Source of the DNA: Smithella sp. PtaU1.Bin162
GTDB taxonomy: Bacteria; Desulfobacterota; Syntrophia; Syntrophales; Smithellaceae
Assembly: GCA_002068015.1 (NCBI GenBank)
Contig: MVRV01000039.1
Span: 755-64,754 of the forward strand
Direction of reading: 5' to 3'
DNA: 64,000 nt
Below, piece after piece: positions 27,807 through 40,728 of this stretch. The notes under the pieces are model-generated. The model was not told the origin of the DNA. It did not search any database and saw only the letters and a list, made by a program, of their open reading frames with translations. The position numbers were made by a program, and so were the translations under genes. Position 1 is the stretch's first letter. The number at the start of each line of letters is the position of its first letter.

Positions 27807-28133
27807 TTAAGAGCAGCAGCCGACTTTATTTTTTTGAGCGGGATCGGCGGGATCGATACTGCAGCAGCATTCTCCTCCCTGTCTTCCCAGAAGAGAGTTG
27901 ATGACGGCGGCGGCACAGCCGACACCGCTATTTACGGAAACGGCACCAAACGGACAATTACGGCTGCATGCTCCGCATTCCATGCAGGCGTCGCGGTTTT
28001 GGATTACCACATGAGAACTATTCATTTTAAATACTTGATGGGGACAGACATCGAGACACATTCCGCAGCCGGTGCATTTGTTTTTGTCAAGTGTTAAGGT
28101 TGCCACATCTTTAAGGTAAACCAAGTTATTCAT
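27807..28133 (-). CDS. hgcB: Mercury methylation ferredoxin HgcB
   Basis: 108 aa. CTGCGMCLDVCP and CMECGACSRNCP motifs (the CMECGA signature). Conserved mid Cys (GVGCAAA). C-terminal ECCC and GCCS. GGAGA Shine-Dalgarno sequence 7 nt before the ATG at 28133. Confidence 0.92.
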   Translation of the reverse strand: MNNLVYLKDVATLTLDKNKCTGCGMCLDVCPHQVFKMNSSHVVIQNRDACMECGACSRNCPFGAVSVNSGVGCAAAVINSLLGRQGGECCCSIDPADPAQKNKVGCCS

Positions 28134-28144
28134 TATAATGTCTC

Positions 28145-29305
28145 CTAAGCAATGATTAGCGATGTTATCCATATAGCCAGACCGCAGGCGCCGGCGGCAA
28201 TCTCCGCGGGCAGCGCCCAGCGCATTTCTTTTTTTACTCCGGATAAAGACGTATAAGTGGAACAGCCCGTAAAATTCATAGCCAGATAAGCGGAAATTGC
28301 CGGAACAATCAAAAGCCAGGCGAGTGTTTCGATTCGACCCGTCCATGTCTGTAAATTTACACTGCGGACATAAAGAAGAATGAGGGTGATGAGAAAACCC
28401 AGAAAAAAACCTTTTGCCGCGAAAGCGCGGCCGGGAAGATAAGGCAAAAGCAGCGGATTAAGCACTGCTCCACCGAGGATGGCGCAAAAGAGTGCAAAAA
28501 CAGCAAATAATCCATAGTTCAAGATATTTGTCCAGAATCCGGCGGGGCCGCCTATTCCGCTCAATAAAAAGAAAACCGCAGCGACGATAAAATATGGCTT
28601 TACAGCGGCAAGAAATTCAATGGGAATTAAAACCACTCTGTCTTTTAAAGGAAATGTAATTTCCCGCATTGCCGGTGTTGTTTTCATTCCGGAGTCAAGG
28701 TAAGCCGGTAAATCTTTCGCCCGAATCGGACCGTAGTGAACTTTAAATCCTGAAGCCTGTTTTACCTGATGAGCGGCTACCCCCGGTGCTCCCAGTTGCG
28801 GCAGAATCAAGTTTTTATGGCTCACAATTTTTTTCAGACCGGAGGATTCAATTCTTTTTATCAACTCCACCGTGCCGAATGTTCCTTTGCCGGCGGCGCA
28901 CCAGACATTGATGCCTTTTGTATCCAGCACCAGAATCCAGGCGGTGCGGCCGGGAAGCTCCCGGCGCAGATAATCGAAGCTCATTTTGTAATTGGCGGTA
29001 ACGAGCACCGGCGAGTTATTGCCGGGGTTGCCCAAGGCATAAAGGCCGGGATCAACCATATAATCCATCCGGCCTTTCCCCCAGCGGGCTTTAACTGCTC
29101 CCCAGTGATCCTGGGAGGTAAGCTGCGGTGATACCTGCGGCAGATTGCCGATGCTTGTCTGAATAGAACCCGTAACAAAAGGTTGGTCCAACCGGGGAAT
29201 AATAACCGGGATATCTTTTACGGCTGAACAGCAATTGGATTCCTGCTGAATTACCTGCAATGTTATTGGGCTTTCCGGGCAGGAACAGCTTTTCTTTTTA
29301 TTCAT
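28145..29305 (-). CDS. hgcA: Mercury methylation corrinoid protein HgcA
   Basis: Diagnostic cap-helix motif NVWCAAGK. CFeSP-like corrinoid domain followed by about 5 TM helices. N-terminal extension carrying CSC and NCC. Confidence 0.95.
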   Translation of the reverse strand: MNKKKSCSCPESPITLQVIQQESNCCSAVKDIPVIIPRLDQPFVTGSIQTSIGNLPQVSPQLTSQDHWGAVKARWGKGRMDYMVDPGLYALGNPGNNSPVLVTANYKMSFDYLRRELPGRTAWILVLDTKGINVWCAAGKGTFGTVELIKRIESSGLKKIVSHKNLILPQLGAPGVAAHQVKQASGFKVHYGPIRAKDLPAYLDSGMKTTPAMREITFPLKDRVVLIPIEFLAAVKPYFIVAAVFFLLSGIGGPAGFWTNILNYGLFAVFALFCAILGGAVLNPLLLPYLPGRAFAAKGFFLGFLITLILLYVRSVNLQTWTGRIETLAWLLIVPAISAYLAMNFTGCSTYTSLSGVKKEMRWALPAEIAAGACGLAIWITSLIIA

Positions 29306-29318
29306 GACGATATCCTTC

Positions 29319-29783
29319 CTATTTGCAGCAACTGTATTCGGCAGTTGAATTTTTTATGGCATTGATGAAAACCCGGATGGCACTGAGAACATCCGTTCTT
29401 TTTCCCTCCGGGATATTCCTTGTTATTTTCTGAAAAAATCCGGCCAAACACAGCAAAATTTTCTCATGAGTTTTTTTGCCCTCCGGTGTCAGAAAAAGTG
29501 TTATTGCCCGGGAATCATGGATAGATTTATCCCGTCTTAAAAGGCCTTTTTGGATCAGGGGATTGACCAGACGCGTTGTTGTGCTTTTCTCAACCGCCAG
29601 AATTGTATGCAGATCGGTCATCGGCAGTTCTTCTTTTTCGGCTACGGCATCGAGGATCATAAACTGGTGAAAAGTCACGCCTTCGCAAAAGGCTACATCC
29701 TGACGGCAGCAGCGTGTCACCTGTGCCATCCCCATAAGTATTTCCATTAATTCATTGTCCGCTGCGGACATTTTCAGTTTCAT
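29319..29783 (-). CDS. MarR family transcriptional regulator with vicinal Cys pairs
   Basis: Winged-HTH core (LHTILAVEKSTTTRLVNPLIQKGLL.R). RCC near the N-terminus and SCCK at the C-terminus. Stops 13 nt before hgcA. ATG at 29783 preferred over the TTG track start at 29798. Confidence 0.85.
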   Translation of the reverse strand: MKLKMSAADNELMEILMGMAQVTRCCRQDVAFCEGVTFHQFMILDAVAEKEELPMTDLHTILAVEKSTTTRLVNPLIQKGLLRRDKSIHDSRAITLFLTPEGKKTHEKILLCLAGFFQKITRNIPEGKRTDVLSAIRVFINAIKNSTAEYSCCK

Positions 29784-29817: not shown

Positions 29818-30008
29818 TATCTTTAATGATATTAATTTCCCAAGCTTAAAATTGGTAAAGAATGCCGTAAAGAATTAAGGTGGTAACTTAAATAATTATT
29901 AATCAATCAATGTAAAAAATAATTTGACAATAACCAAATGATTATGATTATAATCAATATATAGATAGTCAATATAAAAAATGCAACTATAAAGGAGGTG
30001 CCTGCTTC

Positions 30009-30401
30009 ATGAAACTAACTAATCCTGATTATTGGAAGTCATTGATTAATATAGGATTTACAAAAATCCTTGTTTTGAGAGTATTGTCCATATGTCCCAA
30101 CCATGGTTATGGAATATTGAAGGAACTACAATCTATTACTTGTGGCTGTTGTATTCCCACACTGGGAACGATTTATCCTATCCTTAAGGAACTGACACAG
30201 CATGGTTATGCCGAGGTCGGAGAAGATCAGCAACTCAAGGGAGCACAGAAGAGACGGGTCTATACCCTGACGCAATCAGGAGTTGACGCTTATAAGGTGG
30301 CACTGGCGGCATGGCGATCTTCTATTCCTTATGTCTATAAGGCGATAGAAGGCGATGATTTTGTTTTTGCGGAAGAAATGAAGAAAAATAAGACTGAGTA
30401 A
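30009..30401 (+). CDS. PadR family transcriptional regulator with a CGCC insertion
   Basis: HGYGILKEL...GTIYPILKELTQHGY...RRVYTLT is a PadR wHTH. An unusual TCGCC sits just before the recognition region. AGGAGG Shine-Dalgarno sequence. Confidence 0.85.
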   Translation: MKLTNPDYWKSLINIGFTKILVLRVLSICPNHGYGILKELQSITCGCCIPTLGTIYPILKELTQHGYAEVGEDQQLKGAQKRRVYTLTQSGVDAYKVALAAWRSSIPYVYKAIEGDDFVFAEEMKKNKTE

Positions 30402-30422
30402 AAAATATGGGAGGAATTATAT

Positions 30423-31538
30423 ATGTTGGAGTTTAATAATTTTGTCACAGCCGGTAAATTTTTCCTGGTTATTGCCGGTGAGCTTATTCTGATATTTGTT
30501 GCCGTTTCCTTTCTCATTGGACTGCTGACGGAATATCTTCCCCCGTCACGCATCAGAGATTTTTTGTCCAATAAGTTTATCTGGGTGCAATACTTTCTGG
30601 GCGCTGGTCTGGGTGCTATCACACCGTTTTGCTCCTGCTCGACCGTCCCGATCACAGCCGGACTGTTAAAAGGAGGCGTCCCTTTCGGACCCGTCATGGC
30701 CTTTCTTTTTTCCTCGCCGGTTTTGAATCCCGTCATTGTTGCGCTGTTGTTCTCGCTTCTTGGTTATAAAGTTACCTTGATTTATGTCGTTGTCACTTTC
30801 ATCGGTTCCATTACAATGGCGGCGTTACTTTCAAAAATGAGAATGGAAAATCAGGTTAAGTCACTGATTGGTATGGAATCTTCCTGCTGTGGTCAAGCGG
30901 CAAAACCGGATGGTGGAGCCGTGAAATCAGTTGCAGATCCCACGGGTTGCTGTTTTTCCGGCGCCGCCTCACCCGTAACCCTGATCACCCTGCCGACAAT
31001 TCAGGCAGCAGGTAGTTGTTGTGCGAGCAAAGAACCGCCGGTTATGCAAAAGGCTGACCAATCGTCCTGCTGTGCCGTCAGCTTCGATGCGAACACAGGA
31101 AGCGAATCAGAGCGGGTTCCCTTTAAAGAAAAGATGAAAAGAGCATCATTGTCCGCAATCGACACATTCAAGGGAGTGTTCTGGTATCTTCTCCTCGGTG
31201 CCGGGATAGGGGCTTTTATCTATGGATTTTTCCCGCAGGACCTTGTTGTTCAATTGGCGGGGCCGGGAAATCCCTGGTCCATTCCGATCGCAGCGGTTAT
31301 TGGCGTGCCTATGTACATCCGGGCAGAGACCATCATTCCTATAAGTGCTGCATTGGTAGGCAAGGGCATGGGGGTGGGAACAGTTCTTTCCCTTATCATC
31401 GGCGGGGCGGGGGCAAGCATCCCGGAGATCATTATTCTCAGTTCCATGTTCAAAAAGAAACTGATCTTCGCCTTCGTGCTGAATGTTTTTCTGGTCGCAA
31501 TTGTAGCCGGTTATATTGTGAATATTCTCGTTTATTAA
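30423..31538 (+). CDS. ArsP-like/UPF0718 (PF03773-type) permease with a Cys-pair-rich central loop
   Basis: TPFCSCSTVP motif in an early TM helix. The central soluble loop (about nt 30870-31130) contains SSCCGQ, TGCCFS, GSCCAS and SSCCAV. 371 aa and polytopic. Confidence 0.8.
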   Translation: MLEFNNFVTAGKFFLVIAGELILIFVAVSFLIGLLTEYLPPSRIRDFLSNKFIWVQYFLGAGLGAITPFCSCSTVPITAGLLKGGVPFGPVMAFLFSSPVLNPVIVALLFSLLGYKVTLIYVVVTFIGSITMAALLSKMRMENQVKSLIGMESSCCGQAAKPDGGAVKSVADPTGCCFSGAASPVTLITLPTIQAAGSCCASKEPPVMQKADQSSCCAVSFDANTGSESERVPFKEKMKRASLSAIDTFKGVFWYLLLGAGIGAFIYGFFPQDLVVQLAGPGNPWSIPIAAVIGVPMYIRAETIIPISAALVGKGMGVGTVLSLIIGGAGASIPEIIILSSMFKKKLIFAFVLNVFLVAIVAGYIVNILVY

Positions 31539-31627: not shown

Positions 31628-31975
31628 ATGGATAAATTTATTAAAGTAATGAAAGCATTGTCTGATCCAAATCGGGTTAGATTGATAAAGATATTGCAGA
31701 AAAGAGCACTATGCGTTTGTGAAATACAGGCTCTGTTTGAGATGGCTCAGCCGACCGTATCCAAGCACATGAAGTTAATGGAACAGGCAGGATTGGTAAA
31801 AGGAAATAAAGATGGCCTATGGGTGAATTATACGGCCGCTCACGGAAGCGATAATCCCTATGCGGCTAGTATTTTGGGCAATCTCCAACATTGGTTATCA
31901 GATGATGTAGTGTTTAAAAAAATGGAGAAAAAATTGCCGGAAATTAAAAGGGAAAATATTTGTAAGAAAAGCTAG
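31628..31975 (+). CDS. arsR: ArsR/SmtB family repressor with the canonical CVC metalloid site
   Basis: ALSDPNRVRLIKIL..RALCVCEIQALF..PTVSKHMKLMEQAGLV. The LCVCE motif matches the As(III)-binding ELCVCDL-type site. Confidence 0.88.
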   Translation: MDKFIKVMKALSDPNRVRLIKILQKRALCVCEIQALFEMAQPTVSKHMKLMEQAGLVKGNKDGLWVNYTAAHGSDNPYAASILGNLQHWLSDDVVFKKMEKKLPEIKRENICKKS

Positions 31976-32015
31976 AATATTCTAATATTGTAATATAGCA
32001 AGGGGATTTGCGCAA

Positions 32016-32519
32016 ATGGATAATAAGACCATGCAGATTCAGGTGGGAGGCCGACTGACGGGCGTGGTCGGTCTGGAAAGTATACTTGCCGACGTTGCGC
32101 AATGGGCAAAAGGGAAAGAAGAAGCGGAAATCATGGTGGAGCTTCTCAGGCAAGTCGAAGTACGAAACTATATTCCTTCAAAAATTAACGAAATTTATGG
32201 GAAAGCCTTGTTGCGCGAATATAAAAAGTATTTGGGTGAAGCCGTCGAAGAAGAGGCAGTTGCCGGTTTGCAGGTTGTGATATTGGGGCCGGGTTGCGTC
32301 CAGTGCTCGTCTTTGGAATTACGCCTGCGGGATGTTATGGCCGAAATGAATCTGGCCGGCGATTTGACGCATATTACCGACGCGAATGATATCGCCCGAT
32401 ATGGTGTCATGGGAACTCCCGCGCTGATCATCAACGGAAAGGTCGTTGCCGTGGGCATTGTCCCGGAGAAGAAAAAAATCCAAGCCTGGCTCTCGGATGC
32501 CGTTGCGAAAATGGCGTAA
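32016..32519 (+). CDS. Thioredoxin-family protein: unknown N-terminal domain fused to a Thioredoxin_3 / redox-active disulfide protein 2 domain
   Basis: C-terminal half GPGCVQC...YGVMGTPALIINGKVV matches the small Trx-like family. I do not recognise the Cys-free N-terminal 80 aa or so. Confidence 0.7.
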   Translation: MDNKTMQIQVGGRLTGVVGLESILADVAQWAKGKEEAEIMVELLRQVEVRNYIPSKINEIYGKALLREYKKYLGEAVEEEAVAGLQVVILGPGCVQCSSLELRLRDVMAEMNLAGDLTHITDANDIARYGVMGTPALIINGKVVAVGIVPEKKKIQAWLSDAVAKMA

Positions 32520-32588
32520 TATCATGTTTCACGAATCATTATAGATACGCCGAAGTTAATATGACATGAAATCAGAAAGGAATTCATT

Positions 32589-33716
32589 ATGACAAAAAAA
32601 GCCCCGAAAATTTCAGAGCAGAATCTGCCACAATCAGGACCGAAGCGTCTAAATGTGTTTGAACGTTACCTCACGGTCTGGGTGTTGATCTGCATGGTCA
32701 TTGGCGTTGCTTTGGGTAAATTCCTTCCTGAGATTACAGCATCGCTCAGTGCAATGGAATTCGGAAAAGGATCTCAGGTCAATGTGCCTATTGCTATTCT
32801 TATCTGGCTGATGATTTTCCCCATGATGCTGAAGATTGACTTTGGGTCTTTAGGCAGCATTGCGCGTAAGCCCAAGGGACTGTTGATTACATTATTCGTC
32901 AACTGGTTGATTAAGCCTTTCAGCATGGCATTTTTGGCATGGCTGTTCATTCAGAATATTTTTTCTCTCTGGATTGATCCGGAAACCGCTAAAAGTTATA
33001 CTGCCGGTCTCATTATTCTTGCAGCTGCGCCCTGCACTGCCATGGTGTTTGTGTGGTCATACCTGACTGACGGTGACCCGGCCTACACGCTGGTTCAAGT
33101 GGCGGTAAACGACCTTATCATGCTGGTTGCATTTGCGCCGATTGTCATGTTTCTTCTTGGTGTGGCTGATGTTGTTGTCCCTTCCAAAGTATTGATTACG
33201 TCTGTTGTTGTATTTATTGTGATACCCTTGGTGGCAGGATTCATCACCAGGACTGTTTTGCTGAAAAAATACGGTACCAATTGGTTTGAGACTAAATTCC
33301 TGTCCAAGTTTCATCCCGTGACTGTAATTGCACTGCTTCTGACGCTTTTGCTTATCTTTGCTTTTCAGGCGGAAAATCTTACGACCAAATGGATCGCGGT
33401 TATCCTGATTGCCATTCCCATTTTGATTCAGGTTTATTTTAACTCCAGCCTTACCTATCTGCTCATGCGGTTGTTTAAGGTTCAACACAATGTGGCGTCT
33501 CCGGGTGCACTTATAGGAGCCAGCAATTTTTTTGAGCTTGCAGTAGCCGTGGCAATTACGCTTTTCGGGCCGAGTTCCGGCGCGGCGCTGGCCTGCGTAG
33601 TAGGCGTGCTGGTGGAAGTGCCGGTGATGTTGTCGGTCTGTACAATCTGTAACCGATCACAGGGCTGGTATAATCGAACGTTCCCTGCAAAAACAATGAA
33701 TGTGTGTGAAAAATAG
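32589..33716 (+). CDS. acr3: Arsenite efflux transporter, ACR3 family
   Basis: LNVFERYLTVWVLICM N-terminus. Signature ILAAAPCTAMVFVW. About 10 TM helices. Confidence 0.92.
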   Translation: MTKKAPKISEQNLPQSGPKRLNVFERYLTVWVLICMVIGVALGKFLPEITASLSAMEFGKGSQVNVPIAILIWLMIFPMMLKIDFGSLGSIARKPKGLLITLFVNWLIKPFSMAFLAWLFIQNIFSLWIDPETAKSYTAGLIILAAAPCTAMVFVWSYLTDGDPAYTLVQVAVNDLIMLVAFAPIVMFLLGVADVVVPSKVLITSVVVFIVIPLVAGFITRTVLLKKYGTNWFETKFLSKFHPVTVIALLLTLLLIFAFQAENLTTKWIAVILIAIPILIQVYFNSSLTYLLMRLFKVQHNVASPGALIGASNFFELAVAVAITLFGPSSGAALACVVGVLVEVPVMLSVCTICNRSQGWYNRTFPAKTMNVCEK

Positions 33717-33881
33717 CAATTATGAAGATGTTAAAAATGAATAAACAGAGCGAAGATTTACAAAACGTTTGTGCCAATTCTCGGTCGAAGAAAGCTTTCA
33801 GAATGCTTGGCGGTCTTAAGGAAGGTAAGGGAGATTGCGCCGCAACGGCGGAAAAATATAAGGAAGAATGGGGAAAACATA

Positions 33882-34130
33882 ATGACGGATAAAGAAATAC
33901 TGATTTACGGCACCGATACTTGCCCTTTTTGCAAGCAGGCACGTGCGGCCTACGGGGACAGGGCTGTCTTTATCAATGTGGAGAAGGACGAAGCAAAACT
34001 AAGCGAAATGCTGGCCTTATCAGGCGGCAGAAGACAGGTGCCGGTGATTGTGGAAGACGATAAGGTGACGGTCGGGTTTGCAGGAGAGGTATCGCTCCGT
34101 GGCGGGATACCACTGTTCGGTGGTACCTGA
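33882..34130 (+). CDS. Glutaredoxin-like protein (CPFC active site)
   Basis: MTDKEILIYGTDTCPFCKQA...RRQVPVIVEDDKV is a Grx fold. Start chosen at the ATG at 33882. Confidence 0.8.
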   Translation: MTDKEILIYGTDTCPFCKQARAAYGDRAVFINVEKDEAKLSEMLALSGGRRQVPVIVEDDKVTVGFAGEVSLRGGIPLFGGT

Positions 34131-34187
34131 TCTGTATGAAGTCTCTCGTGCAGAGATTATAAAGAAATGACAGAAGGAGATAAAGTG

Positions 34188-34483
34188 ATGTTTGAAGTAA
34201 CAGAAGAAGCAAGCCGTATGTTGAAAGACTTTCTGACCAAGCAAAAAAGCACAAAAGCCATCCGAATTATGATGCAAACCGGCTGAGGCAGGCCCAAACT
34301 GGGCTTGGCTATGGATAAGCCGCAGGATAACGACGTTACATTTAAGGTTCAGGATATTACATATCTCGTTGAAAAAAAATATTTGATCAAGCCAAACCGA
34401 TTAAGATCGATTTCGTTAAGTCCTTTATGAGGTCGGGATTTCAACTGACGTCAAGCCTCCCTGCGGGAGGCGGGTGCTGTTGA
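34188..34483 (+). CDS. HesB/IscA-like selenoprotein candidate (in-frame TGA at 34284-34286; the reading frame must shift -1 in the A8 run at 34372-34379)
   Basis: Translation is MFEVTEEASRMLKDFLTKQKSTKAIRIMMQTG-U-GRPKLGLAMDKPQDNDVTFKVQDITYLVEKK, then in the -1 frame IFDQAKPIKIDFVKSFMRSGFQLTSSLPAGGGCC. It aligns by eye with IscA: SGCSG matches TGUGR and LDFVKEG..GF matches IDFVKSF..GF. AAGGAGA Shine-Dalgarno sequence upstream. Not in the ORF track because of the TGA. Confidence 0.6.
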
Positions 34484-34735
34484 AACGGTTTTATGCGTAG
34501 GTTCTATTTCTAAAAACTCCAATTCCAAAAATGAAGCGCATAACTTGATAACCTGAATTTCACACGAGGTCACAAGTCGGAATTGGTTATTCGAATTGCC
34601 CCTTATAAGCGCGGATATAATTACCAGCAGCTTGCTGGTAAATCTATTTCCGAAGCGTGCGTTGGGATTTATACCAGCGATTCAGAGGCGCCGGACAGTC
34701 ATGACTGGTGCCATTTAATTTTTAAAAAAAAGTGA

Positions 34736-34772
34736 TTGACAGGTAATGGCTATTTGGCTAAATGACCAAATA
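34736..34772 (+). promoter_or_regulatory. Candidate promoter and ArsR operator of the second ArsR operon
   Basis: TTGACA (34736-34741). Dyad TATTTGG-N8-CCAAATA (34751-34757 and 34766-34772) overlaps the likely -10 (TAAATG, 34759-34764). Confidence 0.45.
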
Positions 34773-34791
34773 GCATAAAGGATAAAAACAG

Positions 34792-35124
34792 ATGGAAAGT
34801 TACGTAAAGCCTCAGCATGAGGCGCGGGCAAAAATTATCAAGGCCATGGCACACCCCAGCCGGCTGTTTATTATTGAGGAACTAAGTAAACATGAACGTT
34901 GCGTGGGAGAGCTGACGGAAATGATCGGATCCGATGCTTCGACCGTGTCCAAACATTTGAGTGTTTTGAAGAATGCGGGCCTGGTGACCGATGAGAAACG
35001 GGGGAATTCCATTTACTACAGCCTGCGCGTTCCTTGCATCATGCAATTTATGGGATGTGTGGAGGATGTGTTGTCCGCCAATGCGAAACAACACAATGCG
35101 ATTTTAAAATGCTGTAAGGGCTGA
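34792..35124 (+). CDS. ArsR/SmtB family regulator with C-terminal Cys cluster (CVG instead of CVC; C-terminal KCCKG)
   Basis: AMAHPSRLFIIEELSKHERCVGELTEM..STVSKHLSVLKNAGLV. C-terminal VPCIMQFMGC...ILKCCKG. Confidence 0.88.
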   Translation: MESYVKPQHEARAKIIKAMAHPSRLFIIEELSKHERCVGELTEMIGSDASTVSKHLSVLKNAGLVTDEKRGNSIYYSLRVPCIMQFMGCVEDVLSANAKQHNAILKCCKG

Positions 35125-35228
35125 GCGGCGGGCTGATGTATTGGTGCGTAAAAATAAAAAAATAGTTGCAATAAGCGTCTTGGAAAAAATAAGCAAATCA
35201 TTATCCTAAAAGTTAAGGAGAGATAAAT

Positions 35229-35465
35229 ATGAAAATAGAGATTCTGGGTGTGGGTTGTGCGAAGTGTCACAAATTGGAAGAGCTCGTTCGGGCGGTCGTT
35301 GGTGATACGGGAGTTAGTGCGGAAATCATCAAGGTCGAGGACATTAAAAAAATCATGGGATATGGCGTAATGACAACGCCGGCGCTGGTGATTGACGGCG
35401 AAGTCAGAATCGCCGGTAAGATGCCGACGACGGATCAAGTCAAAAGTTGGCTTACCGTCAAATAA
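35229..35465 (+). CDS. Small thioredoxin-like protein (redox-active disulfide protein 2 family)
   Basis: MKIEILGVGCAKCHKL...YGVMTTPALVIDGEV. 78 aa. Confidence 0.85.
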   Translation: MKIEILGVGCAKCHKLEELVRAVVGDTGVSAEIIKVEDIKKIMGYGVMTTPALVIDGEVRIAGKMPTTDQVKSWLTVK

Positions 35466-35527
35466 TTTTAGCAAAATGAATGATGAACTTAACGATACTG
35501 CAATTCTTTTAGAAAGGAGATTAATTT

Positions 35528-35944
35528 ATGGCTGAATGTTGTGGGTCTGGAACAAAATTAATTTATGCGTGTTCTGGTGCTGCAGATGTTGGCGAGATTG
35601 CCGACAGGGTAACGAGAAAACTGCGCAAAGAGGGAGATTTTCTGATGACATGTCTTGCTGGTATTGGTGCAGGATTATCAGGCTATGTCCAATCGGCAAA
35701 AGGCGCTGATGAAAATATCACTATTGACGGATGTCCGGTAGCCTGTGCGCGAAAAACACTGGAGAGGATAGGCGTAACGCCGACATCGTATATTTTAACA
35801 GATCTGGGACTTGTTAAGGGAGAAAGCCCCGTTTCGGAAAAAATAGTTGACCTGATGTGTGAAAAAATTAAAAAGGCCAAGGGTTCTAAAACGGTGCAGG
35901 AAAGAACAATAACCGGCGGCTGCGGTTGCGGCGGAAAATGCTAG
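35528..35944 (+). CDS. DGC-domain putative zinc/metal-binding protein
   Basis: ACSGAADVG..., IDGCPVACA (the DGC motif). N-terminal MAECCGSG and C-terminal GGCGCGGKC. Confidence 0.7.
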   Translation: MAECCGSGTKLIYACSGAADVGEIADRVTRKLRKEGDFLMTCLAGIGAGLSGYVQSAKGADENITIDGCPVACARKTLERIGVTPTSYILTDLGLVKGESPVSEKIVDLMCEKIKKAKGSKTVQERTITGGCGCGGKC

Positions 35945-36022
35945 ATACCTTTCGTAAATCAGGATTTGTGATCCAGAATTCAGGATAGCATCATCATGCA
36001 AATATTAAGGAGATTGTTACAC

Positions 36023-36445
36023 ATGAAATTGCGGTTAAAAGTAATGGGGATTTTAGTGTTACTGGCTGTATTTACACTTGTCCTTCTTTCGGCGAACTGC
36101 GGCAAAGCGCTTGCGCAGGATAAAACCGGCAAATCCACTGTCTCGAGGCCGTCCGTTTTTACGCCGCTGGTGACATTTGTTGAAATCGGTGCGGCCAGTT
36201 GTATTCCCTGTAAGGCCATGCAGCCGATCATGAAAGCTGTGGCAGAGGAATACAAGGGACAGGTCAAGGTTGTTTTTCACGATGTCTGGACGCAGCAAGG
36301 GAAGATTGATGCCGAAAAATATAATATTCGCGTGATTCCTACTCAGGTATTCCTCGATGTCAGCGGCAAGGAATACTACAGGCACGAAGGGTATTTCCCG
36401 AAAGAGCAGGTTGTTCAAGTTCTGAAAAAGGGAGGGGTTAAATAA
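36023..36445 (+). CDS. Secreted thioredoxin-fold protein (CIPC active site)
   Basis: Signal peptide MKLRLKVMGILVLLAVFTLVLLSA. Trx motif GAASCIPCKAM. AAGGAG Shine-Dalgarno sequence 8 nt before the ATG at 36023. Confidence 0.8.
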   Translation: MKLRLKVMGILVLLAVFTLVLLSANCGKALAQDKTGKSTVSRPSVFTPLVTFVEIGAASCIPCKAMQPIMKAVAEEYKGQVKVVFHDVWTQQGKIDAEKYNIRVIPTQVFLDVSGKEYYRHEGYFPKEQVVQVLKKGGVK

Positions 36446-37159
36446 ATGCTGGTTGACCTCTTTACCTCTCTCACTGCAGCCCTGACACAGTCACCTGGAA
36501 TCGCTATTGGCGCGGCGTTTGCCTGGGGCATACTATCGGTTATCCTTTCGCCCTGCCATATTGCGTGTATTCCCTTGATTGTGGGCTTCATCGACGGCCA
36601 GGGCGATATTACCACGCGACGGGCATTTGGTCTTTCACTTCTTTTCGGATTAGGGATTCTCATTACCATCGGCCTTATCGGCCTTATCACCGGCCTGGCG
36701 GGTCGGATGATGGGAGATATTGGAGGCTATGGAAATTATGTTGTAGCAATCGTCTTCTTTGCGATTGGTCTCAATTTACTGGGCATTTTGCCGCTGCCCT
36801 TTATGGAAGGTGGCGCGAATCCCAATTATAAAAGAAAAGGTTTTCTTGCGGCGTTTATTCTGGGGCTGATATTCGGCGTTGCCCTGGGGCCCTGCACATT
36901 TGCTTACATGGCGACGATGCTGGGCGTGGTGTTCAGTATGGCGGGAACGCAGTTGATGCTGGCGATGTTGATTCTGGCCGCGTTTGCTGTCGGCCACTGT
37001 TCGGTGCTGGTTTTTGCAGGCACTTTCACGGAAGTCGTGCAGCACTACCTGCACTGGAGTGAAAAGTCGAAGGGTGCCGTTATTTTAAAAAAGATATGCG
37101 GCGTACTGGTTATTTTAGGCGGTGTTTACTTAATTGCGCTGAATTTTATGCAAAGATAA
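36446..37159 (+). CDS. ccdA: CcdA/DsbD-family transmembrane thiol:disulfide electron transporter
   Basis: Six TM helices, with the two conserved Cys in LSPCHIACIPL and LGPCTFAYM. Confidence 0.85.
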   Translation: MLVDLFTSLTAALTQSPGIAIGAAFAWGILSVILSPCHIACIPLIVGFIDGQGDITTRRAFGLSLLFGLGILITIGLIGLITGLAGRMMGDIGGYGNYVVAIVFFAIGLNLLGILPLPFMEGGANPNYKRKGFLAAFILGLIFGVALGPCTFAYMATMLGVVFSMAGTQLMLAMLILAAFAVGHCSVLVFAGTFTEVVQHYLHWSEKSKGAVILKKICGVLVILGGVYLIALNFMQR

Positions 37160-37162
37160 CGG

Positions 37163-37329
37163 ATGAAAAGAATGGTTTTGTTCTTATGTACAGCCAATCC
37201 CTGCCGTTTGCAGATGGCCTAAGGTATTGCCAACTACTTTCGGGGCGACACAAGACCTTTTCTGCGGGAACTAAAGCTTCGTTTGTTAACTCGACGGCTG
37301 ATGATGGCTTTGAAGAAGTTCTGAAATAG
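37163..37329 (+). pseudogene. arsC: Decayed LMW-PTP-type arsenate reductase (arsC) remnant
   Basis: The ATG at 37163 gives MKRMVLFLCTANPCRLQMA-stop(TAA)-GIANYFRGD, which contains a CX5R P-loop as in ArsC (ICTGNSCRSQMAEG). A shifted frame continues ..FSAGTKASFVNSTADDGFEEV (compare [21 protein letters not shown]) and ends at 37329. Only about the first 60 codons remain. Confidence 0.5.
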
Positions 37330-37351
37330 TGCTGGATGAAGAGCATGGATT

Positions 37352-38395
37352 ATGACGGGCTTCACGACAATGATTAGAAAATATCGTCACATTCTCACCA
37401 TTGCGCTGGCGCTAGCCGGCATTGGGATCATGGCCTACTACGACTACTGCGATACGGCCTGCAGCTATCTCAGAGGCGATATCTGCGGCATTGATCTCAA
37501 GTGGGTGGGGATGGCGTTTATGGCGGCGGTGATTGTTTTTGCCGCGTTTAAACAGACTGCTTTTGTCCGGATGTTTCTGGCTGCCGGCCTGGGTGTGGAA
37601 GTGCATTTGTATGCCTTTCAGTTACAAAACGACGTCTATTGTCCGTTTTGTCTGGCCTTTTCGGTGCTACTGATTGCATCATTTGTCGTTAATTATGAAG
37701 TCCCCTCTGCGTGGCGGGGAGACCGTCGCCGGATGTGGCTCTATTTTCTCGGAGAGGTGAATTTTCCTATGTTTAAGATAAATAAGTTGCCCCTGTTACT
37801 GATCAGCGTGCTTGCCTACCTGTTAATTTTGGTGACGTTTAACGGATCAGTTACACCCGCCTACGGGCAGGAGCCGATAAAAGGCATTCCTGCACTGGGT
37901 AAAGGCCCCTATGAGATCATTATATTTGCCGACTACTTCTGCCCGCCTTGCCGCAGGATAGATACGAAAGCTGAACCTCTGTTTAAGGAAATATTGGTAA
38001 CTGGGCAAGTGCAGCTGGCATTTATTGATGTTCCTTTTGCCAGTGCGGCGCCTGTTTATGCCAAGTATTACCTTTATGCGGTCAATGCCGATCCGGGTGT
38101 AAACAATGTTTTTCACGTGCGCAGGGTACTTTTCAATGCGGCGCAGGATAAACGCATACAAAAGGAAAATGCTTTAATTGACTATCTTAAGGAGCAGAAT
38201 ATCAAATGGTTGGCTATGGATGAAAAGTCTGTTTTTCCGCTTCTCAGCGCTTCTATAAAAGAACATAAAGTTGACACTACGCCGACCTGTTTTATTAAAT
38301 ATTCTAAAGACAATGTTAAAAAATATGTTGGCGATGACAAGATATGGGAGGGCTTGACCCAATTCAAGGATCATCTGTTGACGCAGAAAAAATAG
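37352..38395 (+). CDS. VKOR-like membrane domain fused to a DsbA-like thioredoxin domain
   Basis: Loop cysteines YCDTACSYLRGDIC and an intramembrane CPFC fit a VKOR pattern. An extra TM helix is followed by a periplasmic domain with FADYFCPPC. Confidence 0.7.
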   Translation: MTGFTTMIRKYRHILTIALALAGIGIMAYYDYCDTACSYLRGDICGIDLKWVGMAFMAAVIVFAAFKQTAFVRMFLAAGLGVEVHLYAFQLQNDVYCPFCLAFSVLLIASFVVNYEVPSAWRGDRRRMWLYFLGEVNFPMFKINKLPLLLISVLAYLLILVTFNGSVTPAYGQEPIKGIPALGKGPYEIIIFADYFCPPCRRIDTKAEPLFKEILVTGQVQLAFIDVPFASAAPVYAKYYLYAVNADPGVNNVFHVRRVLFNAAQDKRIQKENALIDYLKEQNIKWLAMDEKSVFPLLSASIKEHKVDTTPTCFIKYSKDNVKKYVGDDKIWEGLTQFKDHLLTQKK

Positions 38396-38455
38396 TTGCG
38401 GCAAGATTTGAGGGAAATATCAAATATAAGATCATTGCTCGAGGATGGTGCTTTG

Positions 38456-39112
38456 ATGCAGGTTAACTGTTCTAAATTTATTTATGTTTTAGTAAATATG
38501 CTGTGCATCTTTATACTGTGCGCTGCGTTGACCCGTCCGACTCAAGCCGCCGAAAATGCACCTGTTTTCTCCTACGGTTCAGGTCCTTATGAGCTTATCG
38601 TTTTCTCGGATTATTTTTGTGCGCCCTGCCAGAAGATGGAAAAGGAATTGGACAAAATCATTTCCGGGATGATTGAGCGGGGAGGTGTCAGGGTCACTTT
38701 TGTTGATCTTCCCATATATAAGCTGACGCCGCTTTACGGTACTTATTTCTTGTATGTCTTAAATGCGGCACCAACTTACGCGGAAGCTTTGCGGGCCAGG
38801 CGCTTGCTGTTCGAAAAGGCTTCACGCATCGGCGCTATTACGGACAAACATTTGGAAACCGCCCTGCAGGCGGCAAACATACCTGTTAAGCCCTATGACA
38901 TTAAGCAATCTTTGGTCAGGTACAAAGATATGATCAGGAAGTATAAGATTCGTTCGACACCGACCTTCGTTTTCATCTATTCGTCAACAGACATCCGCAA
39001 ATATTCGAAAAGTGAAGCGATCAGGAAAGGAATGGTGGAACTGGCAAAGTCGATTGAAGAACGGGGAAATAATTCTTGTAAAAGCTGCAATTCGATGGAT
39101 ATTCCCCGATGA
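38456..39112 (+). CDS. Secreted DsbA-like thiol:disulfide oxidoreductase (paralog of the C-terminal domain of the preceding gene)
   Basis: Signal peptide, then GSGPYELIVFSDYFCAPC; compare GKGPYEIIIFADYFCPPC in the upstream gene. ATG at 38456 follows GAGGATGG. Confidence 0.75.
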   Translation: MQVNCSKFIYVLVNMLCIFILCAALTRPTQAAENAPVFSYGSGPYELIVFSDYFCAPCQKMEKELDKIISGMIERGGVRVTFVDLPIYKLTPLYGTYFLYVLNAAPTYAEALRARRLLFEKASRIGAITDKHLETALQAANIPVKPYDIKQSLVRYKDMIRKYKIRSTPTFVFIYSSTDIRKYSKSEAIRKGMVELAKSIEERGNNSCKSCNSMDIPR

Positions 39113-39169
39113 CCTGCACAGTGGCAAAAATAGTATTGATAAAAAATTGCAATATTAAGGAAATAAATT

Positions 39170-40342
39170 ATGAAAGAATGGCAAAAAATTTTATTAATCG
39201 TGGCAATATTCTTAGGTGCTTACTATATTCCCTGGGAGGCTGCAATTGTACGGCAGTCCGGTCTCGAAGCCTTTATGATGCTGCAGGAATATGCCCGCCA
39301 GCATGTATTGACGTGCCTGATTCCTGCGTTTTTCATTGCCGGGGCTATTACCGTCTTCGTTTCACAGGCTTCGGTTCTTAAATATTTCGGGGCGAAGGCC
39401 AATAAGATTCTGTCCTATTCGGTCGCTTCCGTTTCCGGTTCGGTGCTGGCGGTATGCTCCTGCACAGTGCTGCCTTTATTTGCCGGTATCTACACGCGCG
39501 GTGCGGGAATCGGCCCGGCAACGGCTTTTCTTTATTCCGGCCCGGCCATCAACGTGCTCGCGATAATACTTACAGCCAAAGTGCTGGGCTGGCAATTGGG
39601 AGTTGCCCGTGCAGTCGGTGCGGTGATTTTTGCCGTTGTGACGGGTTTGTTGATGGCCTTTATCTTCCGTAAGGACGATGCCAATCGTCAAACCGGTGAA
39701 ATCTTTCTGCCGGAGGAAGAGAAAACGGTAAGAACGCTGGGGCAGGATGGTCTCTATATGCTGACAATGGTGCTGATTCTTGTTTTTGCATCGTTTGCCC
39801 GGCCTTCTGAAAGTGACGGCGCACTGTGGCGATTTATTTTCAGCGCCAAATGGTATCTGACGGTTTTATTGCTGATAATTTTGGCCGTAATGCTCAAAAA
39901 ATGGTTTGTGAAAGAAGAACTTCGTTTCTGGATGGAAGCCACCTGGACTTTTTCCAAACAAATTCTGCCGCTTTTGTTCGGTGGCGTACTGGTTGCAGGA
40001 TTTCTTCTGGGGCGGCCCGGCTATCCGGCACTGATTCCGGAGACCGCTATTCAAACTCTCGTCGGGGGAAATTCGCTTGGGGCTAATTTCTTTGCTTCCA
40101 TCGTTGGTGCGCTCATGTATTTTGCCACGCTCACCGAAGTTCCGATTCTTCAGGGTTTAATTGGTTCCGGAATGGGGCAGGGGCCGGCCTTGGCGCTGCT
40201 TCTGGCCGGTCCGGCTCTATCGTTGCCCAATATGATTGCGATTGCCGGTATCATGGGCATCAAGAAAACAGTTGTTTACTGTACTATCGTGGTGATCCTT
40301 TCGACGATTTCCGGTATGATTTACGGCTGGTTAATGGGGTAG
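39170..40342 (+). CDS. ArsP-like/UPF0718 (PF03773-type) permease, second copy
   Basis: 390 aa and polytopic. AVCSCTVLP motif at the position equivalent to the CSC of the 30423 permease. No Cys-rich loop. Confidence 0.8.
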   Translation: MKEWQKILLIVAIFLGAYYIPWEAAIVRQSGLEAFMMLQEYARQHVLTCLIPAFFIAGAITVFVSQASVLKYFGAKANKILSYSVASVSGSVLAVCSCTVLPLFAGIYTRGAGIGPATAFLYSGPAINVLAIILTAKVLGWQLGVARAVGAVIFAVVTGLLMAFIFRKDDANRQTGEIFLPEEEKTVRTLGQDGLYMLTMVLILVFASFARPSESDGALWRFIFSAKWYLTVLLLIILAVMLKKWFVKEELRFWMEATWTFSKQILPLLFGGVLVAGFLLGRPGYPALIPETAIQTLVGGNSLGANFFASIVGALMYFATLTEVPILQGLIGSGMGQGPALALLLAGPALSLPNMIAIAGIMGIKKTVVYCTIVVILSTISGMIYGWLMG

Positions 40343-40574: not shown

Positions 40575-40728
40575 TCCGTGGAACCCTTATTTTCTGGATA
40601 TAAAGGAATCAACTGAATACCAGAAATGAATACAAAGTATCCAGTCCAGTTTCATAGACCATCTGTAATTTTATTGATCTTTTAAAATTCTCATATTATT
40701 ACAGTACCTTAACTCATTAAGACGATGT

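What the first reader, a model, noticed from the sequence alone, without database searches (positions are those of the whole stretch)
30009..31538. PadR(CGCC) with an ArsP-like permease carrying four Cys-Cys pairs in one loop, divergent from hgcAB
The permease (PF03773-like, with CSC in an early TM helix) has a soluble central loop of about 85 aa containing SSCCGQ, TGCCFS, GSCCAS and SSCCAV. This quasi-periodic set of vicinal dithiols is suited to binding Hg(II), MeHg or As(III)/organoarsenicals. Its PadR regulator carries an atypical TCGCC insertion next to the wHTH. The operon is transcribed divergently from marR-hgcAB across a 225-nt AT-rich region. How Hg(II) enters and MeHg leaves methylators is not settled, so a Cys-studded permease directly beside hgcAB is a concrete candidate. 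The second permease copy at 39170 lacks this loop.
Basis: partly seen in the sequence, partly recalled or inferred. Interest (0 to 1): 0.8.

Follow-up and report, generated by a model that had tools for sequence, protein, structure and literature searches.

The report
Cysteine-pair-studded ArsP exporter with thiol-sensing PadR
A small self-regulated two-gene cassette encodes a repressor and a membrane exporter that both carry conserved adjacent-cysteine pairs; it most likely pumps out a sulfur-loving toxic metal or metalloid, probably arsenic compounds, and its position next to the mercury-methylation genes recurs in some genomes but is not the rule.

Summary
A PadR gene (30009-30401) and an ArsP_1 permease gene (30423-31538) form an operon divergent from marR-hgcA-hgcB across a 225-nt spacer with 25% GC. 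The permease has TPFCSCSTVP in a broken helix and four Cys-Cys pairs in a roughly 90-aa disordered loop.

The loop is not lineage-specific junk. In 121 homologues the eight Cys columns are 92-100% conserved, against 51% for the rest of the loop. The PadR is LmrR-like. Only its GCC is invariant (120 of 120 homologues), and it lies in the loop just before the recognition helix; it is a substitution, not an insertion. In Smithella and Syntrophus the PadR is replaced by a MarR that also carries conserved CC pairs. A conserved dyad, TATATTGA-N3-TCAATATA, follows the -10 box.

The context is mainly an arsenic and thiol-redox island: 24 of 33 well-flanked loci have ACR3 and 29 of 33 have some ars-like gene. 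hgcAB lies within 10 kb in 7 of 71 genome loci and in S. aciditrophicus SB, and apparently in the same operon in Kiritimatiellia-type genomes. None of the 80 hgcA loci closest to this one has the permease.

Best reading: an inducible efflux cassette for a thiophilic metal(loid), probably trivalent (organo)arsenicals, with the loop acting as a built-in relay. A dedicated Hg/MeHg role is not excluded, but I rate it unlikely (about 0.1).

The parts
29924..29954 (+). Promoter-like site of the padR-arsP operon: -35 TTGACA at 29924-29929; -10 GATTAT/TATAAT within 29946-29954
   Evidence: Consensus scan. A TTGACA plus TATGAT/TATAAT pair at the same relative position upstream of padR in about 20 orthologous loci.
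29958..29976 (.). Conserved dyad TATATAGA-TAG-TCAATATA, the candidate PadR operator, immediately downstream of the -10 box
   Evidence: All 21 padR upstream regions match TATATTGA-N3-TCAATATA at 13-16 of 16 positions. The mean is 14.3, against 10.7 +/- 0.17 in shuffles. Spacing is N3 in 19 of 21, and the dyad lies 26-58 nt before the start codon.
30009..30401 (+). padR: an LmrR-like PadR-family repressor of 130 aa
   Evidence: PF03551 at 57.6 bits. The closest solved relative is LmrR, 3f8c/8qdf, E 2e-10. AF2 model with pLDDT 80: helices 6-28, 33-43 and 52-64, wing 68-87, helices 89-114 and 117-129.
30147..30152 (+). Codons for the invariant vicinal pair Cys47-Cys48, in the 8-residue loop between helix 2 and the recognition helix
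   Evidence: GCC is present in 120 of 120 homologues. G46, C47 and C48 are invariant columns. The model places residues 44-51 between H33-43 and H52-64. The pair aligns with 'GEM' of LmrR without a gap.
30423..31538 (+). arsP-like permease (PF03773) of 371 aa, 21 nt after padR and with its own Shine-Dalgarno sequence
   Evidence: PF03773 at 195 bits. It scores below the equivalog cut-offs of SaoE (116 vs 325) and SO_0444 (116 vs 300). Sequence.
30630..30638 (+). Cys70-Ser71-Cys72 of the TPFCSCSTVP motif, at the break of a discontinuous membrane helix
   Evidence: T67, P68, F69, C70, S71, C72, S73, T74 and P76 are invariant in 43 aligned homologues. The AF2 model has helices 53-66 and 71-83 with a break at 67-70.
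30861..31121 (+). Central loop (aa 147-233), predicted disordered, Ser/Ala/Gly/Pro-rich, carrying the four CC pairs
   Evidence: pLDDT is about 21-30 for residues 147-247. Loop columns other than Cys are 51% conserved, against 97% for the Cys columns.
30885..30890 (+). CC pair 1 (Cys155-Cys156)
   Evidence: 97% and 100% conserved; translation checked.
30948..30953 (+). CC pair 2 (Cys176-Cys177)
   Evidence: 97% and 97% conserved.
31017..31022 (+). CC pair 3 (Cys199-Cys200)
   Evidence: 93% and 92% conserved.
31068..31073 (+). CC pair 4 (Cys216-Cys217)
   Evidence: 99% and 100% conserved.
27807..29783 (-). Divergent neighbour module marR (29319-29783), hgcA (28145-29305), hgcB (27807-28133). 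This is context, not part of the cassette.
   Evidence: NCBIfam HgcA at 480 bits and HgcB at 120 bits; MarR Pfam hits. marR-hgcA-hgcB is conserved in 18 of 80 related loci.
31628..40342 (+). Downstream ars and thiol-redox island: arsR with a CVC motif (31628-31975), ArsE-like thioredoxin (32016-32519), ACR3 (32589-33716), glutaredoxin (33879-34130), arsR (34792-35124), Thioredoxin_3 (35229-35465), DGC (35528-35944), exported thioredoxin (35996-36445), CcdA/DsbD_TM (36446-37159), two Thioredoxin_4 proteins (37352-39112), and a second, loop-less ArsP_1 permease (39170-40342)
   Evidence: Pfam and NCBIfam scans. The same gene set is syntenic next to the CC-permease in Smithella-type loci L017, L027, L031, L043, L048 and L064.

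Best explanation
padR-arsP is a self-contained, autoregulated efflux cassette for a thiophilic metal(loid), most probably trivalent arsenicals or antimonials such as methylarsenite, aromatic As(III) or As(III)/Sb(III).

Proposed mechanism (every step is inferred; what is directly shown for each step is listed in the For line):
1. The LmrR-like PadR dimer sits on the dyad TATATAGA-N3-TCAATATA just downstream of the -10 box and blocks its own promoter.
2. A soft ligand bridges the invariant vicinal thiols Cys47-Cys48 in the short loop that positions the recognition helix. This distorts the helix-turn-helix and releases the DNA.
3. The ArsP-family secondary transporter is then made. Its roughly 90-residue flexible central loop, probably cytoplasmic, offers four two-thiol sites. 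These capture the ligand from cytosolic thiols and pass it by ligand exchange to the intramembrane Cys70-x-Cys72 site on the broken helix. From there it is exported, driven by the proton-motive force.

In effect the loop is a built-in ArsD-like metallochaperone.

The cassette is one module of a larger ars and thiol-redox island. Its position beside marR-hgcAB reflects the known tendency of hgcAB to sit in or next to ars islands, not a dedicated mercury function.
For: Shown directly:
- Family membership and the invariant TPFCSCS motif.
- The loop Cys pairs are 92-100% conserved in a loop that is otherwise 51% conserved.
- The loop is disordered, and the CSC motif lies at a helix break.
- GCC is invariant in 120 of 120 PadR homologues and lies in the loop between helix 2 and helix 3.
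- A conserved promoter plus dyad occurs in all 21 loci examined.
- The regulator and permease genes are always adjacent on the same strand.
- Where PadR is absent, a MarR with conserved CC pairs ('NCCENISHGEF', 'RICCV') takes its place in 23 loci, so two different regulator families converge on the same thiol theme.
- Context in loci with at least 5 kb on both sides: ACR3 in 24 of 33, ArsE-type thioredoxin in 24, the second ArsP in 21, and any ars-like gene in 29. LMW-phosphatase-type ArsC, DUF2703 and rhodanese also recur.
- The neighbouring ArsR proteins carry the classical CVC As(III) motif.

From the literature:
- ArsP of C. jejuni exports MAs(III) and Rox(III) (reviewed in PMC6205960).
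- MarR_ars senses As(III)/Sb(III) through Cys36-Cys37 plus Cys157 and occurs next to arsP (10.1101/2021.08.12.456183).
- An ArsP/ArsE/DGC operon is induced by arsenic in P. mercurii ND132 (10.1101/2022.10.17.512643).

Inferred:
- The loop is cytoplasmic. The K+R count on the loop side against the opposite side is 10.6 vs 7.8 for a plain 8-TM model. For a model with two re-entrant hairpins, my hand sum of the same per-loop counts gives 14.7 vs 3.7.
- Two-thiol sites suit R-As(III), which has two free valences (own knowledge: SpArsR Cys101-Cys102 and ArsD vicinal pairs).
Against: - There is no experimental datum for any member of this subfamily.
- The substrate cannot be read from sequence. Two-thiol sites bind Hg(II), Cd(II) and Cu(I) as well as, or better than, As(III).
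- Other members of PF03773 are linked to Cu/Zn (SO_0444, PMC3219624) and Cd/Cu (PMC10092412).
- Several loci place the cassette beside CDF, P1B-ATPase and ZraP-like genes rather than ars genes.
- The regulator is not an ArsR.
- The PadR keeps the Trp (W102) that in LmrR stacks on planar drugs, so a lipophilic inducer is possible.
- The topology is inferred from charge bias only, and the permease model is of low confidence (pLDDT 56).
- The operator is inferred from conservation alone.
- hgcAB adjacency in about 18% of well-flanked loci is far above random and is not fully explained.
Confidence: 0.55

Rival explanations
1. Mercury-specific role coupled to HgcAB. The permease either exports methylmercury (or Hg(II)) produced or handled by HgcAB, or delivers Hg(II) to it. 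The CC pairs act like those of MerT, MerF or the MerA C-terminus, and the PadR/MarR thiols sense Hg.
For: - hgcAB lies within 10 kb of the permease in 7 of 71 genome loci (6 of 33 well-flanked) and in S. aciditrophicus SB. There are at least four different arrangements across Syntrophia and the Kiritimatiellia/Verrucomicrobiota group.
- In L049, L056, L057 and L060 the order is hgcA-hgcB-arsP-acr3 or arsP-hgcA-hgcB-acr3, on one strand with gaps under about 200 nt.
- CC motifs also occur in the HgcA N-terminus, the HgcB C-terminus and the hgcA-linked MarR of this window. The CC/CU theme has been noted for HgcAB (10.1101/2022.07.06.499078).
- No Hg(II)/MeHg transporter of methylators is known.
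Against: - None of the 80 hgcA loci closest to this HgcA has the permease.
- Most permease loci (27 of 33 well-flanked) have no hgcAB nearby.
- In S. aromaticivorans UI and S. gentianae there is no hgcAB within 10 kb of the cassette.
- The closest permease relatives (76-82% identity) sit in unrelated contexts.
- The PVC operons also contain arsR and acr3, so they read as hgcAB embedded in an ars operon.
- No mer gene family was among the nine recurrent neighbour families identified; mer genes were not queried directly.
- Similar Cys-rich-loop permeases sit on enterobacterial plasmids in non-methylators.
Confidence: 0.12
2. Exporter of soft divalent or monovalent metal cations (Cd, Zn, Cu(I)), as proposed for the SO_0444 family. 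The Cys-rich loop would play the role that His- or Cys-rich loops play in CDF and ZIP transporters.
For: - The nearest named NCBIfam models are the SO_0444 Cu/Zn efflux family and SaoE.
- SO_0444 is required under Zn and Cu stress (PMC3219624). A Nitratiruptor homologue is induced by Cd and Cu (PMC10092412).
- CDF, ZraP-like Metal_resist, MamS_MamX, a P1B-ATPase and a MacB-type ABC system recur nearby.
- Other family members have His-rich central loops (P0222 has 29 His).
Against: - Scores are far below both equivalog cut-offs (116 vs 300 and 325).
- ars genes are the commonest neighbours.
- Regulators with a single vicinal pair per monomer are atypical for Zn/Cd sensors, which use three or four ligands.
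- The MarR alternative resembles the As(III)/Sb(III) sensor MarR_ars.
Confidence: 0.2
3. The loop is periplasmic and is kept reduced by the co-located CcdA / exported-thioredoxin system. The protein would then capture or import a thiophilic species from outside (MerT-like), or act as a periplasmic sink.
For: - CcdA is present in 22 of 33 well-flanked loci and exported thioredoxin in 20 of 33. VKOR-like and DsbA-like genes also recur.
- For the plain 8-TM model the charge bias is only modest (10.6 vs 7.8).
Against: - The loop is flanked by the most K/R-rich segments of the protein: 5.4 K+R in the 20 residues before TM5.
- The loop-less paralogue has two extra TM segments there, with K/R-rich outer flanks.
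- Every characterised family member is an exporter.
- The cassette often occurs without CcdA/TrxP.
Confidence: 0.08
4. The loop is only a flexible linker between the two halves of the transporter, and its cysteines have no specific role.
For: - The loop is disordered and compositionally biased.
- Its length and sequence vary, and the paralogue and many relatives lack it.
Against: - The eight Cys columns are 92-100% conserved, against 51% for their neighbours, across taxa from several phyla.
- Multi-CC loops arose repeatedly in distant family members, with 3-7 pairs.
- Both regulator types carry the same motif.
Confidence: 0.03

Closest known systems
ArsP of Campylobacter jejuni (Organo-Arsenical Exporter family, PF03773 / TC 2.A.119)
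   Same: Same Pfam family. It has the same conserved TPFCSCS-type CxC motif in an early membrane helix, which is required for MAs(III)/Rox(III) efflux in CjArsP (own knowledge of Chen et al. 2015; function reviewed in PMC6205960). It is also encoded in ars gene clusters.
   Different: To my knowledge CjArsP is shorter and has no multi-CC central loop. It is controlled by an ArsR, not by a PadR or MarR. No transport data exist for the subfamily found here.
SO_0444 Cu/Zn efflux family and SaoE (NCBIfam NF033936, NF040736)
   Same: These are the nearest named equivalog models. They share the CSC motif, which is USC in selenoprotein members (10.1101/2022.07.06.499078), and are proposed exporters of soft metals.
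   Different: Scores are 116 bits against cut-offs of 300 and 325, so the window protein is not a member. SO_0444 is paired with a ZntR-like MerR regulator (PMC3219624).
ArsD arsenic metallochaperone
   Same: It works alike. Several vicinal Cys pairs on a flexible protein bind As(III)/Sb(III) and hand it to a transporter (own knowledge).
   Different: No homology. ArsD is a separate soluble protein that serves the ArsAB ATPase pump, whereas here the pairs are built into the permease.
Mer transport and relay proteins (MerT/MerF/MerC, the C-terminal Cys pair of MerA)
   Same: They use vicinal Cys pairs to pass Hg(II) by ligand exchange across or along the membrane (own knowledge).
   Different: No sequence relationship (no Pfam hit other than ArsP_1). 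The Mer proteins import Hg(II) for reduction. No mer gene family was among the nine recurrent neighbour families I identified.
MarR_ars (Achromobacter AdMarR_ars)
   Same: A winged-helix repressor in which a vicinal pair (Cys36-Cys37) plus a C-terminal Cys sense As(III)/Sb(III), found next to arsV, arsN or arsP (10.1101/2021.08.12.456183). The MarRs that replace PadR upstream of this permease, and the MarR upstream of hgcA in this window, have comparable Cys patterns.
   Different: The window's own cassette uses a PadR instead.
LmrR (Lactococcus lactis PadR-family multidrug sensor)
   Same: The closest solved structure (E 2e-10). Same short single-domain architecture. The Trp that forms the drug-stacking pair in LmrR aligns with the invariant W102. 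It regulates an exporter.
   Different: LmrR has no cysteines in the loop between helix 2 and helix 3 ('GEM' in place of 'GCC'), and it senses lipophilic drugs, not metals.

Membership tests
ArsP_1 / PF03773 permease family | Match to the Pfam model above the gathering score over the full length | tested here: met
   195.1 bits against 32.3; residues 10-367 match profile positions 5-293 of 294.
ArsP organoarsenical exporters (CjArsP type) | Conserved CxC pair in the TPFCSCSxxP motif of an early membrane helix | tested here: met
   TPFCSCSTVP at aa 67-76; C70 and C72 are invariant in 43 homologues and in 119 of the 120 listed.
ArsP organoarsenical exporters (CjArsP type) | Efflux of MAs(III)/Rox(III), but not of As(III) or pentavalent species | not testable with these tools
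   Needs transport or resistance assays.
ArsP organoarsenical exporters (CjArsP type) | Location in an ars gene cluster | tested here: met
   arsR(CVC)-arsE-like-acr3 starts 90 nt downstream in the window. An ars-like gene lies within 10 kb in 29 of 33 well-flanked loci.
SO_0444 family Cu/Zn efflux transporter (NF033936) | Score at or above the curated equivalog cut-off | tested here: not met
   115.7 bits against 300.
SaoE (NF040736) | Score at or above the cut-off, and presence of the SAO ABC-transporter locus | tested here: not met
   115.9 bits against 325. No SAO-type genes were seen in the parts of the window I scanned.
PadR family (LmrR-like, short type) | PadR winged helix-turn-helix domain plus a single C-terminal dimerisation helix | tested here: met
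   PF03551 at 57.6 bits against 27. Profile hit to the LmrR structures. The AF2 secondary structure matches the fold.
hgcAB-dedicated accessory gene | Conserved co-localisation with hgcAB across methylators | tested here: not met
   None of the 80 closest hgcA loci has it. hgcAB is near the permease in only 7 of 71 genome loci (6 of 33 well-flanked).
hgcAB-dedicated accessory gene | Genome-wide co-occurrence with hgcA beyond phylogenetic expectation | not tested
Mer transporters (MerT/MerC/MerF/MerE) | Sequence homology to a Mer transporter family | tested here: not met
   Only ArsP_1 is found by Pfam. PDB sequence and fold searches give nothing relevant.

The most novel reading that the evidence does not exclude
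The PadR/MarR(CC)-ArsP(4xCC) cassette is a dedicated partner of HgcAB. Under this reading it is the missing transporter that removes methylmercury from methylating cells, or that handles Hg(II) or another organometal substrate of HgcAB. In Kiritimatiellia-type bacteria it would be co-transcribed with hgcAB, and in Syntrophia it would be repeatedly recruited next to it.
Probability: 0.1. Interest if true: 0.85.

Novelty: new variant of a known kind. Interest (0 to 1): 0.5.

Why it matters
The finding defines a coherent, widespread and so far undescribed subfamily of ArsP-type exporters. Its 90%-identity clusters number over 100 and come from Syntrophia, Syntrophorhabdia, Desulfatiglandales, Kiritimatiellia/Verrucomicrobiota and others. 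The transporter carries its own multi-site thiol relay.

Two unrelated repressor families, PadR and MarR, have converged on vicinal-Cys sensing upstream of this permease. A PadR that senses through a Cys pair beside its recognition helix would be a new sensing mode for that family.

For mercury research, the finding gives a concrete, clonable candidate that sits 3 kb from hgcAB in a cultured organism (S. aciditrophicus SB). In PVC methylators it sits inside apparent arsR-hgcAB-arsP-acr3 operons. This sharpens the current question of whether HgcAB's native role is tied to arsenic or other thiophilic metalloids. If the substrate is methylarsenite or a thioarsenical, the cassette is also relevant to arsenic cycling in methanogenic sediments and digesters.

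Tried and rejected
- PDB sequence search with the permease gave only spurious low-complexity hits to designed WD40 proteins over loop residues 145-173.
- Foldseek of the AF2 model against the PDB gave no match with E below 3.8. No ArsP_1 structure exists and the model is weak (pLDDT 56).
- Tandem Repeats Finder on the gene found no repeats, so the CC periodicity is not a recent DNA duplication.
- Rfam and tRNA scans of the window found only a tRNA-Lys at 19622-19696 and no riboswitch or leader in the spacer.
- Pfam scans of ten long homologues, looking for fused soluble domains that would fix the topology, found nothing besides ArsP_1.
- The plasmid search gave only about 42%-identical relatives next to a small HTH gene and was uninformative on substrate.
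- Literature searches (hgcAB + ArsP; PF03773 + mercury; PadR + arsenite; ArsP + cysteine-rich loop) found no description of this loop or of a thiol-sensing PadR. The primary CjArsP paper (PMC4681449) is not held.
- I considered an Fe-S cluster or a persulfide carrier role for the CC pairs. I rejected both as primary readings because the loop is disordered, the pairs are about 20 residues apart, and the matching regulators point to ligand sensing.
- I rejected the 'insertion' description of the PadR motif.
Full report
**What is there.**
- padR is at 30009-30401 (PF03551, 57.6 bits).
- A permease gene follows 21 nt later at 30423-31538 (PF03773 ArsP_1, 195 bits).
- On the other strand lie marR (29319-29783), hgcA (28145-29305; NF040863, 480 bits) and hgcB (27807-28133; NF040864, 120 bits).
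- The spacer 29784-30008 is 225 nt with 24.9% GC.
- The permease has TPFCSCSTVP at aa 67-76 and CC pairs at aa 155/156, 176/177, 199/200 and 216/217, in a Ser/Ala/Gly/Pro-rich stretch.
- The second ArsP_1 gene (39170-40342) is only 22% identical, has no CC pair, and has two extra hydrophobic segments where the loop would be.

**Is the loop meaningful?** The 120 best database homologues (69-99% identity, 363-375 aa apart from two of 349 aa) come from Syntrophales, Syntrophorhabdus, Smithella, Desulfatiglandales, Desulfosudis, Bacteroidales bins and others. Nearly all keep the pairs.
- In a 121-sequence alignment the eight Cys columns are 92-100% conserved. The remaining loop columns average 51% and the membrane parts 89%. 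Of the sequences, 98 have four pairs and 22 have three.
- AlphaFold2 predicts residues 147-247 as disordered (pLDDT about 25). It places the CSC motif at the break of a discontinuous helix (53-66 / 71-83), with equivalent broken helices in the second half.
- The cysteines are therefore under purifying selection within an otherwise free-running linker.
- At 50% identity the whole subfamily collapses into one cluster. More distant ArsP_1 proteins have independently acquired three to seven CC pairs, or His-rich tracts, at the same place.
- A 42%-identical permease with a Cys/Ser-rich loop is present on about 1000 enterobacterial plasmids.
- A thiol-rich central loop is thus a recurrent design in this family and is not a peculiarity of methylators.

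**The regulator.** The PadR is of the short LmrR type. LmrR is its closest solved relative (E 2e-10), and the alignment is gap-free across the motif, so 'GCC' replaces LmrR's 'GEM' rather than being inserted.
- The AF2 model (pLDDT 80) puts residues 44-51 (T-C-G-C-C-I-P-T) between helix 2 (33-43) and the recognition helix (52-64).
- GCC is present in 120 of 120 homologues. The first Cys of the window's CGCC is Ser in 94 of them.
- W102, which aligns with the drug-stacking Trp96 of LmrR, is also invariant.
- Upstream of padR, all 21 loci examined have a TTGACA/TATAAT-like promoter followed by the dyad TATATTGA-N3-TCAATATA. Matches are 13-16 of 16, with a mean of 14.3 against 10.7 +/- 0.17 in shuffles. 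In the window the dyad is at 29958-29976. I read this as the operator of an autorepressor.

**A second regulator family with the same theme.** In 23 loci (Smithella, Syntrophus and others) the gene in front of the permease is not a PadR. It is a MarR with two conserved CC pairs ('NCCENISHGEF' and 'RICCV'), and three pairs in S. aciditrophicus. An As(III)/Sb(III)-sensing MarR subfamily that uses Cys36-Cys37 plus Cys157 and occurs next to arsV, arsN or arsP has been described (10.1101/2021.08.12.456183). Two different winged-helix families converging on vicinal cysteines in front of a permease studded with vicinal cysteines argues strongly that sensor and transporter see the same thiophilic ligand.

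**Genomic context.** One scan of species-representative genomes returned 71 loci with this permease.
- Among the 33 loci with at least 5 kb on both sides:

| Neighbour within 10 kb | Loci (of 33) |
|---|---|
| ACR3 | 24 |
| ArsE-type Thioredoxin_3 | 24 |
| Loop-less ArsP | 21 |
| CcdA | 22 |
| Exported thioredoxin | 20 |
| Any ars-like gene | 29 |
| hgcA | 6 |

- Clustering the unexplained neighbours added CDF transporters, LMW-phosphatase-type ArsC, DUF2703, flavodoxin, a C_GCAxxG_C_C protein and rhodanese. No mer family was among the nine recurrent neighbour families identified.
- The window's island 31628-40342 runs arsR(CVC)-arsE-like-acr3-grx-arsR-Trx3-DGC-Trx-CcdA-Trx4-Trx4-arsP2. It is syntenic with Smithella loci in which MarR-arsP heads the same array.
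- Further metagenomic contexts show the cassette beside CDF, ZraP-like, P1B-ATPase or MacB-type genes, or in unrelated surroundings.
- The two-gene cassette therefore behaves as a portable module that mostly lands in metal(loid) islands.

**Relation to hgcAB.**
- hgcAB lies within 10 kb of the permease in L004, L014, L047, L049, L056, L057 and L060, and in the window itself. All of these HgcA proteins have the NVWCAAG(K/E) cap-helix motif.
- In the complete genome of Syntrophus aciditrophicus SB, hgcA is 3.2 kb downstream on the same strand.
- The arrangements differ: divergent in the window, arsP-hgcAB in L004, and hgcAB 4-9 kb away in L047 and L014.
- In four Kiritimatiellia/Verrucomicrobiota genomes the order is hgcA-hgcB-arsP-acr3 or arsP-hgcA-hgcB-acr3, with gaps under about 200 nt and an arsR upstream. 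This looks like hgcAB embedded in an ars operon.
- In the reverse direction, I took the 80 metagenomic hgcA loci most similar to this HgcA (47-72% identity), of which 46 have at least 2.5 kb on one side. None has the permease, 18 have marR-hgcA-hgcB, and 3 have ACR3; about 10 have an ArsR-like gene (my count from the listing).
- Co-localisation of hgcAB with arsR, acr3, arsC and arsM is already published (PMC7438021, PMC11984097, PMC10349881). ArsR-dependent, arsenic-responsive hgcAB transcription is shown in ND132 (10.1101/2022.10.17.512643).
- The permease itself is not mentioned in those papers or in my searches.
- So the adjacency is real and recurrent, but it is a minority pattern. It is parsimoniously explained by the ars-hgcAB link.

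**Mechanism proposed.**
- Shown: family membership, the conserved CxC motif, conserved CC pairs in a disordered loop, a conserved CC pair next to the recognition helix, a conserved promoter-proximal dyad, strict regulator-permease adjacency, and ars-dominated neighbourhoods.
- Inferred: PadR represses from the dyad. A soft ligand bridging Cys47-Cys48 releases it. The loop, acting as a tethered ArsD-like chaperone, collects the ligand and passes it by thiol exchange to Cys70/Cys72 for export.
- Topology: charge counts favour a cytoplasmic loop. On the loop side against the opposite side, K+R is 10.6 vs 7.8 for a plain 8-TM model. If helices 3 and 7 are re-entrant hairpins, summing the same per-loop counts by hand gives 14.7 vs 3.7. 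This remains unproven.
- Substrate: every site offers two thiols, and the characterised ArsP exports R-As(III). I therefore favour trivalent organoarsenicals or antimonite/arsenite. Hg(II), Cd(II) and Cu(I) fit the chemistry too, and relatives are linked to Cu/Zn/Cd (PMC3219624, PMC10092412).

**Verdict.** The cassette is a new variant of a known kind, namely an ArsP-family exporter with a built-in multi-dithiol loop and a novel thiol-bearing PadR (or MarR) sensor. I rate it of moderate interest. Its value is mainly as a well-defined, testable candidate at the arsenic-mercury interface, with S. aciditrophicus SB as an available cultured host.

Noticed in passing
window 29319-29801 (marR and its start region); L078-L099, L115: marR-hgcA-hgcB is a conserved module. 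Of the 80 closest hgcA loci, 18 have a MarR hit directly upstream; 14 of them are 46-63% identical to the window's. These 14 MarRs keep Cys at about positions 30/31 and 37 and a C-terminal CxC/CC cluster, which is reminiscent of the As(III)/Sb(III) sensor MarR_ars (Cys36/37/157). A perfect palindrome TGGTTGTAT-g-ATACAACCA (29783-29801) overlaps the marR start codon. Its DNA is conserved in the other loci, where it shows up as a translated 'LYxTTM'. It is a likely operator through which hgcAB could be controlled by a thiol-reactive metalloid. MarR upstream of hgcA has been mentioned only in passing (PMC10349881).
   Followed up: partly
L169 (Syntrophus aciditrophicus SB, CP000252.1) 9434-15902: This cultured strain with a complete genome has the order marR(3xCC)-arsP(4xCC)-DUF2703-...-arsR(CVC)-...-hgcA-hgcB on one strand. 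A divergent arsR-acr3-arsP2-Trx3 operon lies on the other side. It is a ready experimental model for the cassette and for its relation to hgcAB.
   Followed up: partly
L057 4215-4922; L143, L144, L147 (and, about 1 kb upstream, L155), just upstream of hgcA: A DsbD_TM/CcdA-like membrane protein is encoded directly upstream of hgcA in the PVC-type loci and in several unrelated metagenomic hgcA loci. It is a second recurrent thiol-bearing membrane neighbour of hgcAB.
   Followed up: no
L049, L056, L057, L060 (Kiritimatiellia/Verrucomicrobiota MAGs): hgcA-hgcB appear embedded in an ars operon (arsR ... hgcA-hgcB-arsP-acr3, or arsP-hgcA-hgcB-acr3). A conserved 227-aa protein with no Pfam match lies upstream (L057 3522-4202).
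   Followed up: partly
L158 (E. coli plasmid NZ_CP072987.1) 6542-8002, and about 1000 PLSDB records: Conjugative enterobacterial plasmids widely carry a 42%-identical TPFCSCS permease with a Cys/Ser-rich central loop (7 Cys). It lies divergent from a small HTH gene and is annotated only as 'permease'. Its function is apparently unstudied.
   Followed up: no
window 28145-29305 and 27807-28133: HgcA has an N-terminal extension with CSC and NCCS motifs (the non-selenocysteine form of the CU/CC extension described in 10.1101/2022.07.06.499078). HgcB ends in ...ECCCS...VGCCS. The CC theme therefore runs through HgcA, HgcB, MarR, PadR and the permease within 4 kb.
   Followed up: no
window 40725-44161; L159, L163: A ZraP/Spy-like Metal_resist protein, a MacB-type ABC transporter (ATPase plus FtsX/MacB_PCD permease) and a LolA-like protein follow the island. 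The ABC transporter and LolA-like genes recur next to the CC-permease in other contigs, with the Metal_resist gene as well in L163.
   Followed up: no
window 30009-30401 (PadR W102): The Trp that forms the drug-stacking pair in LmrR is invariant in this PadR subfamily. An aromatic or lipophilic moiety may therefore also be recognised, for example an aromatic arsenical.
   Followed up: no
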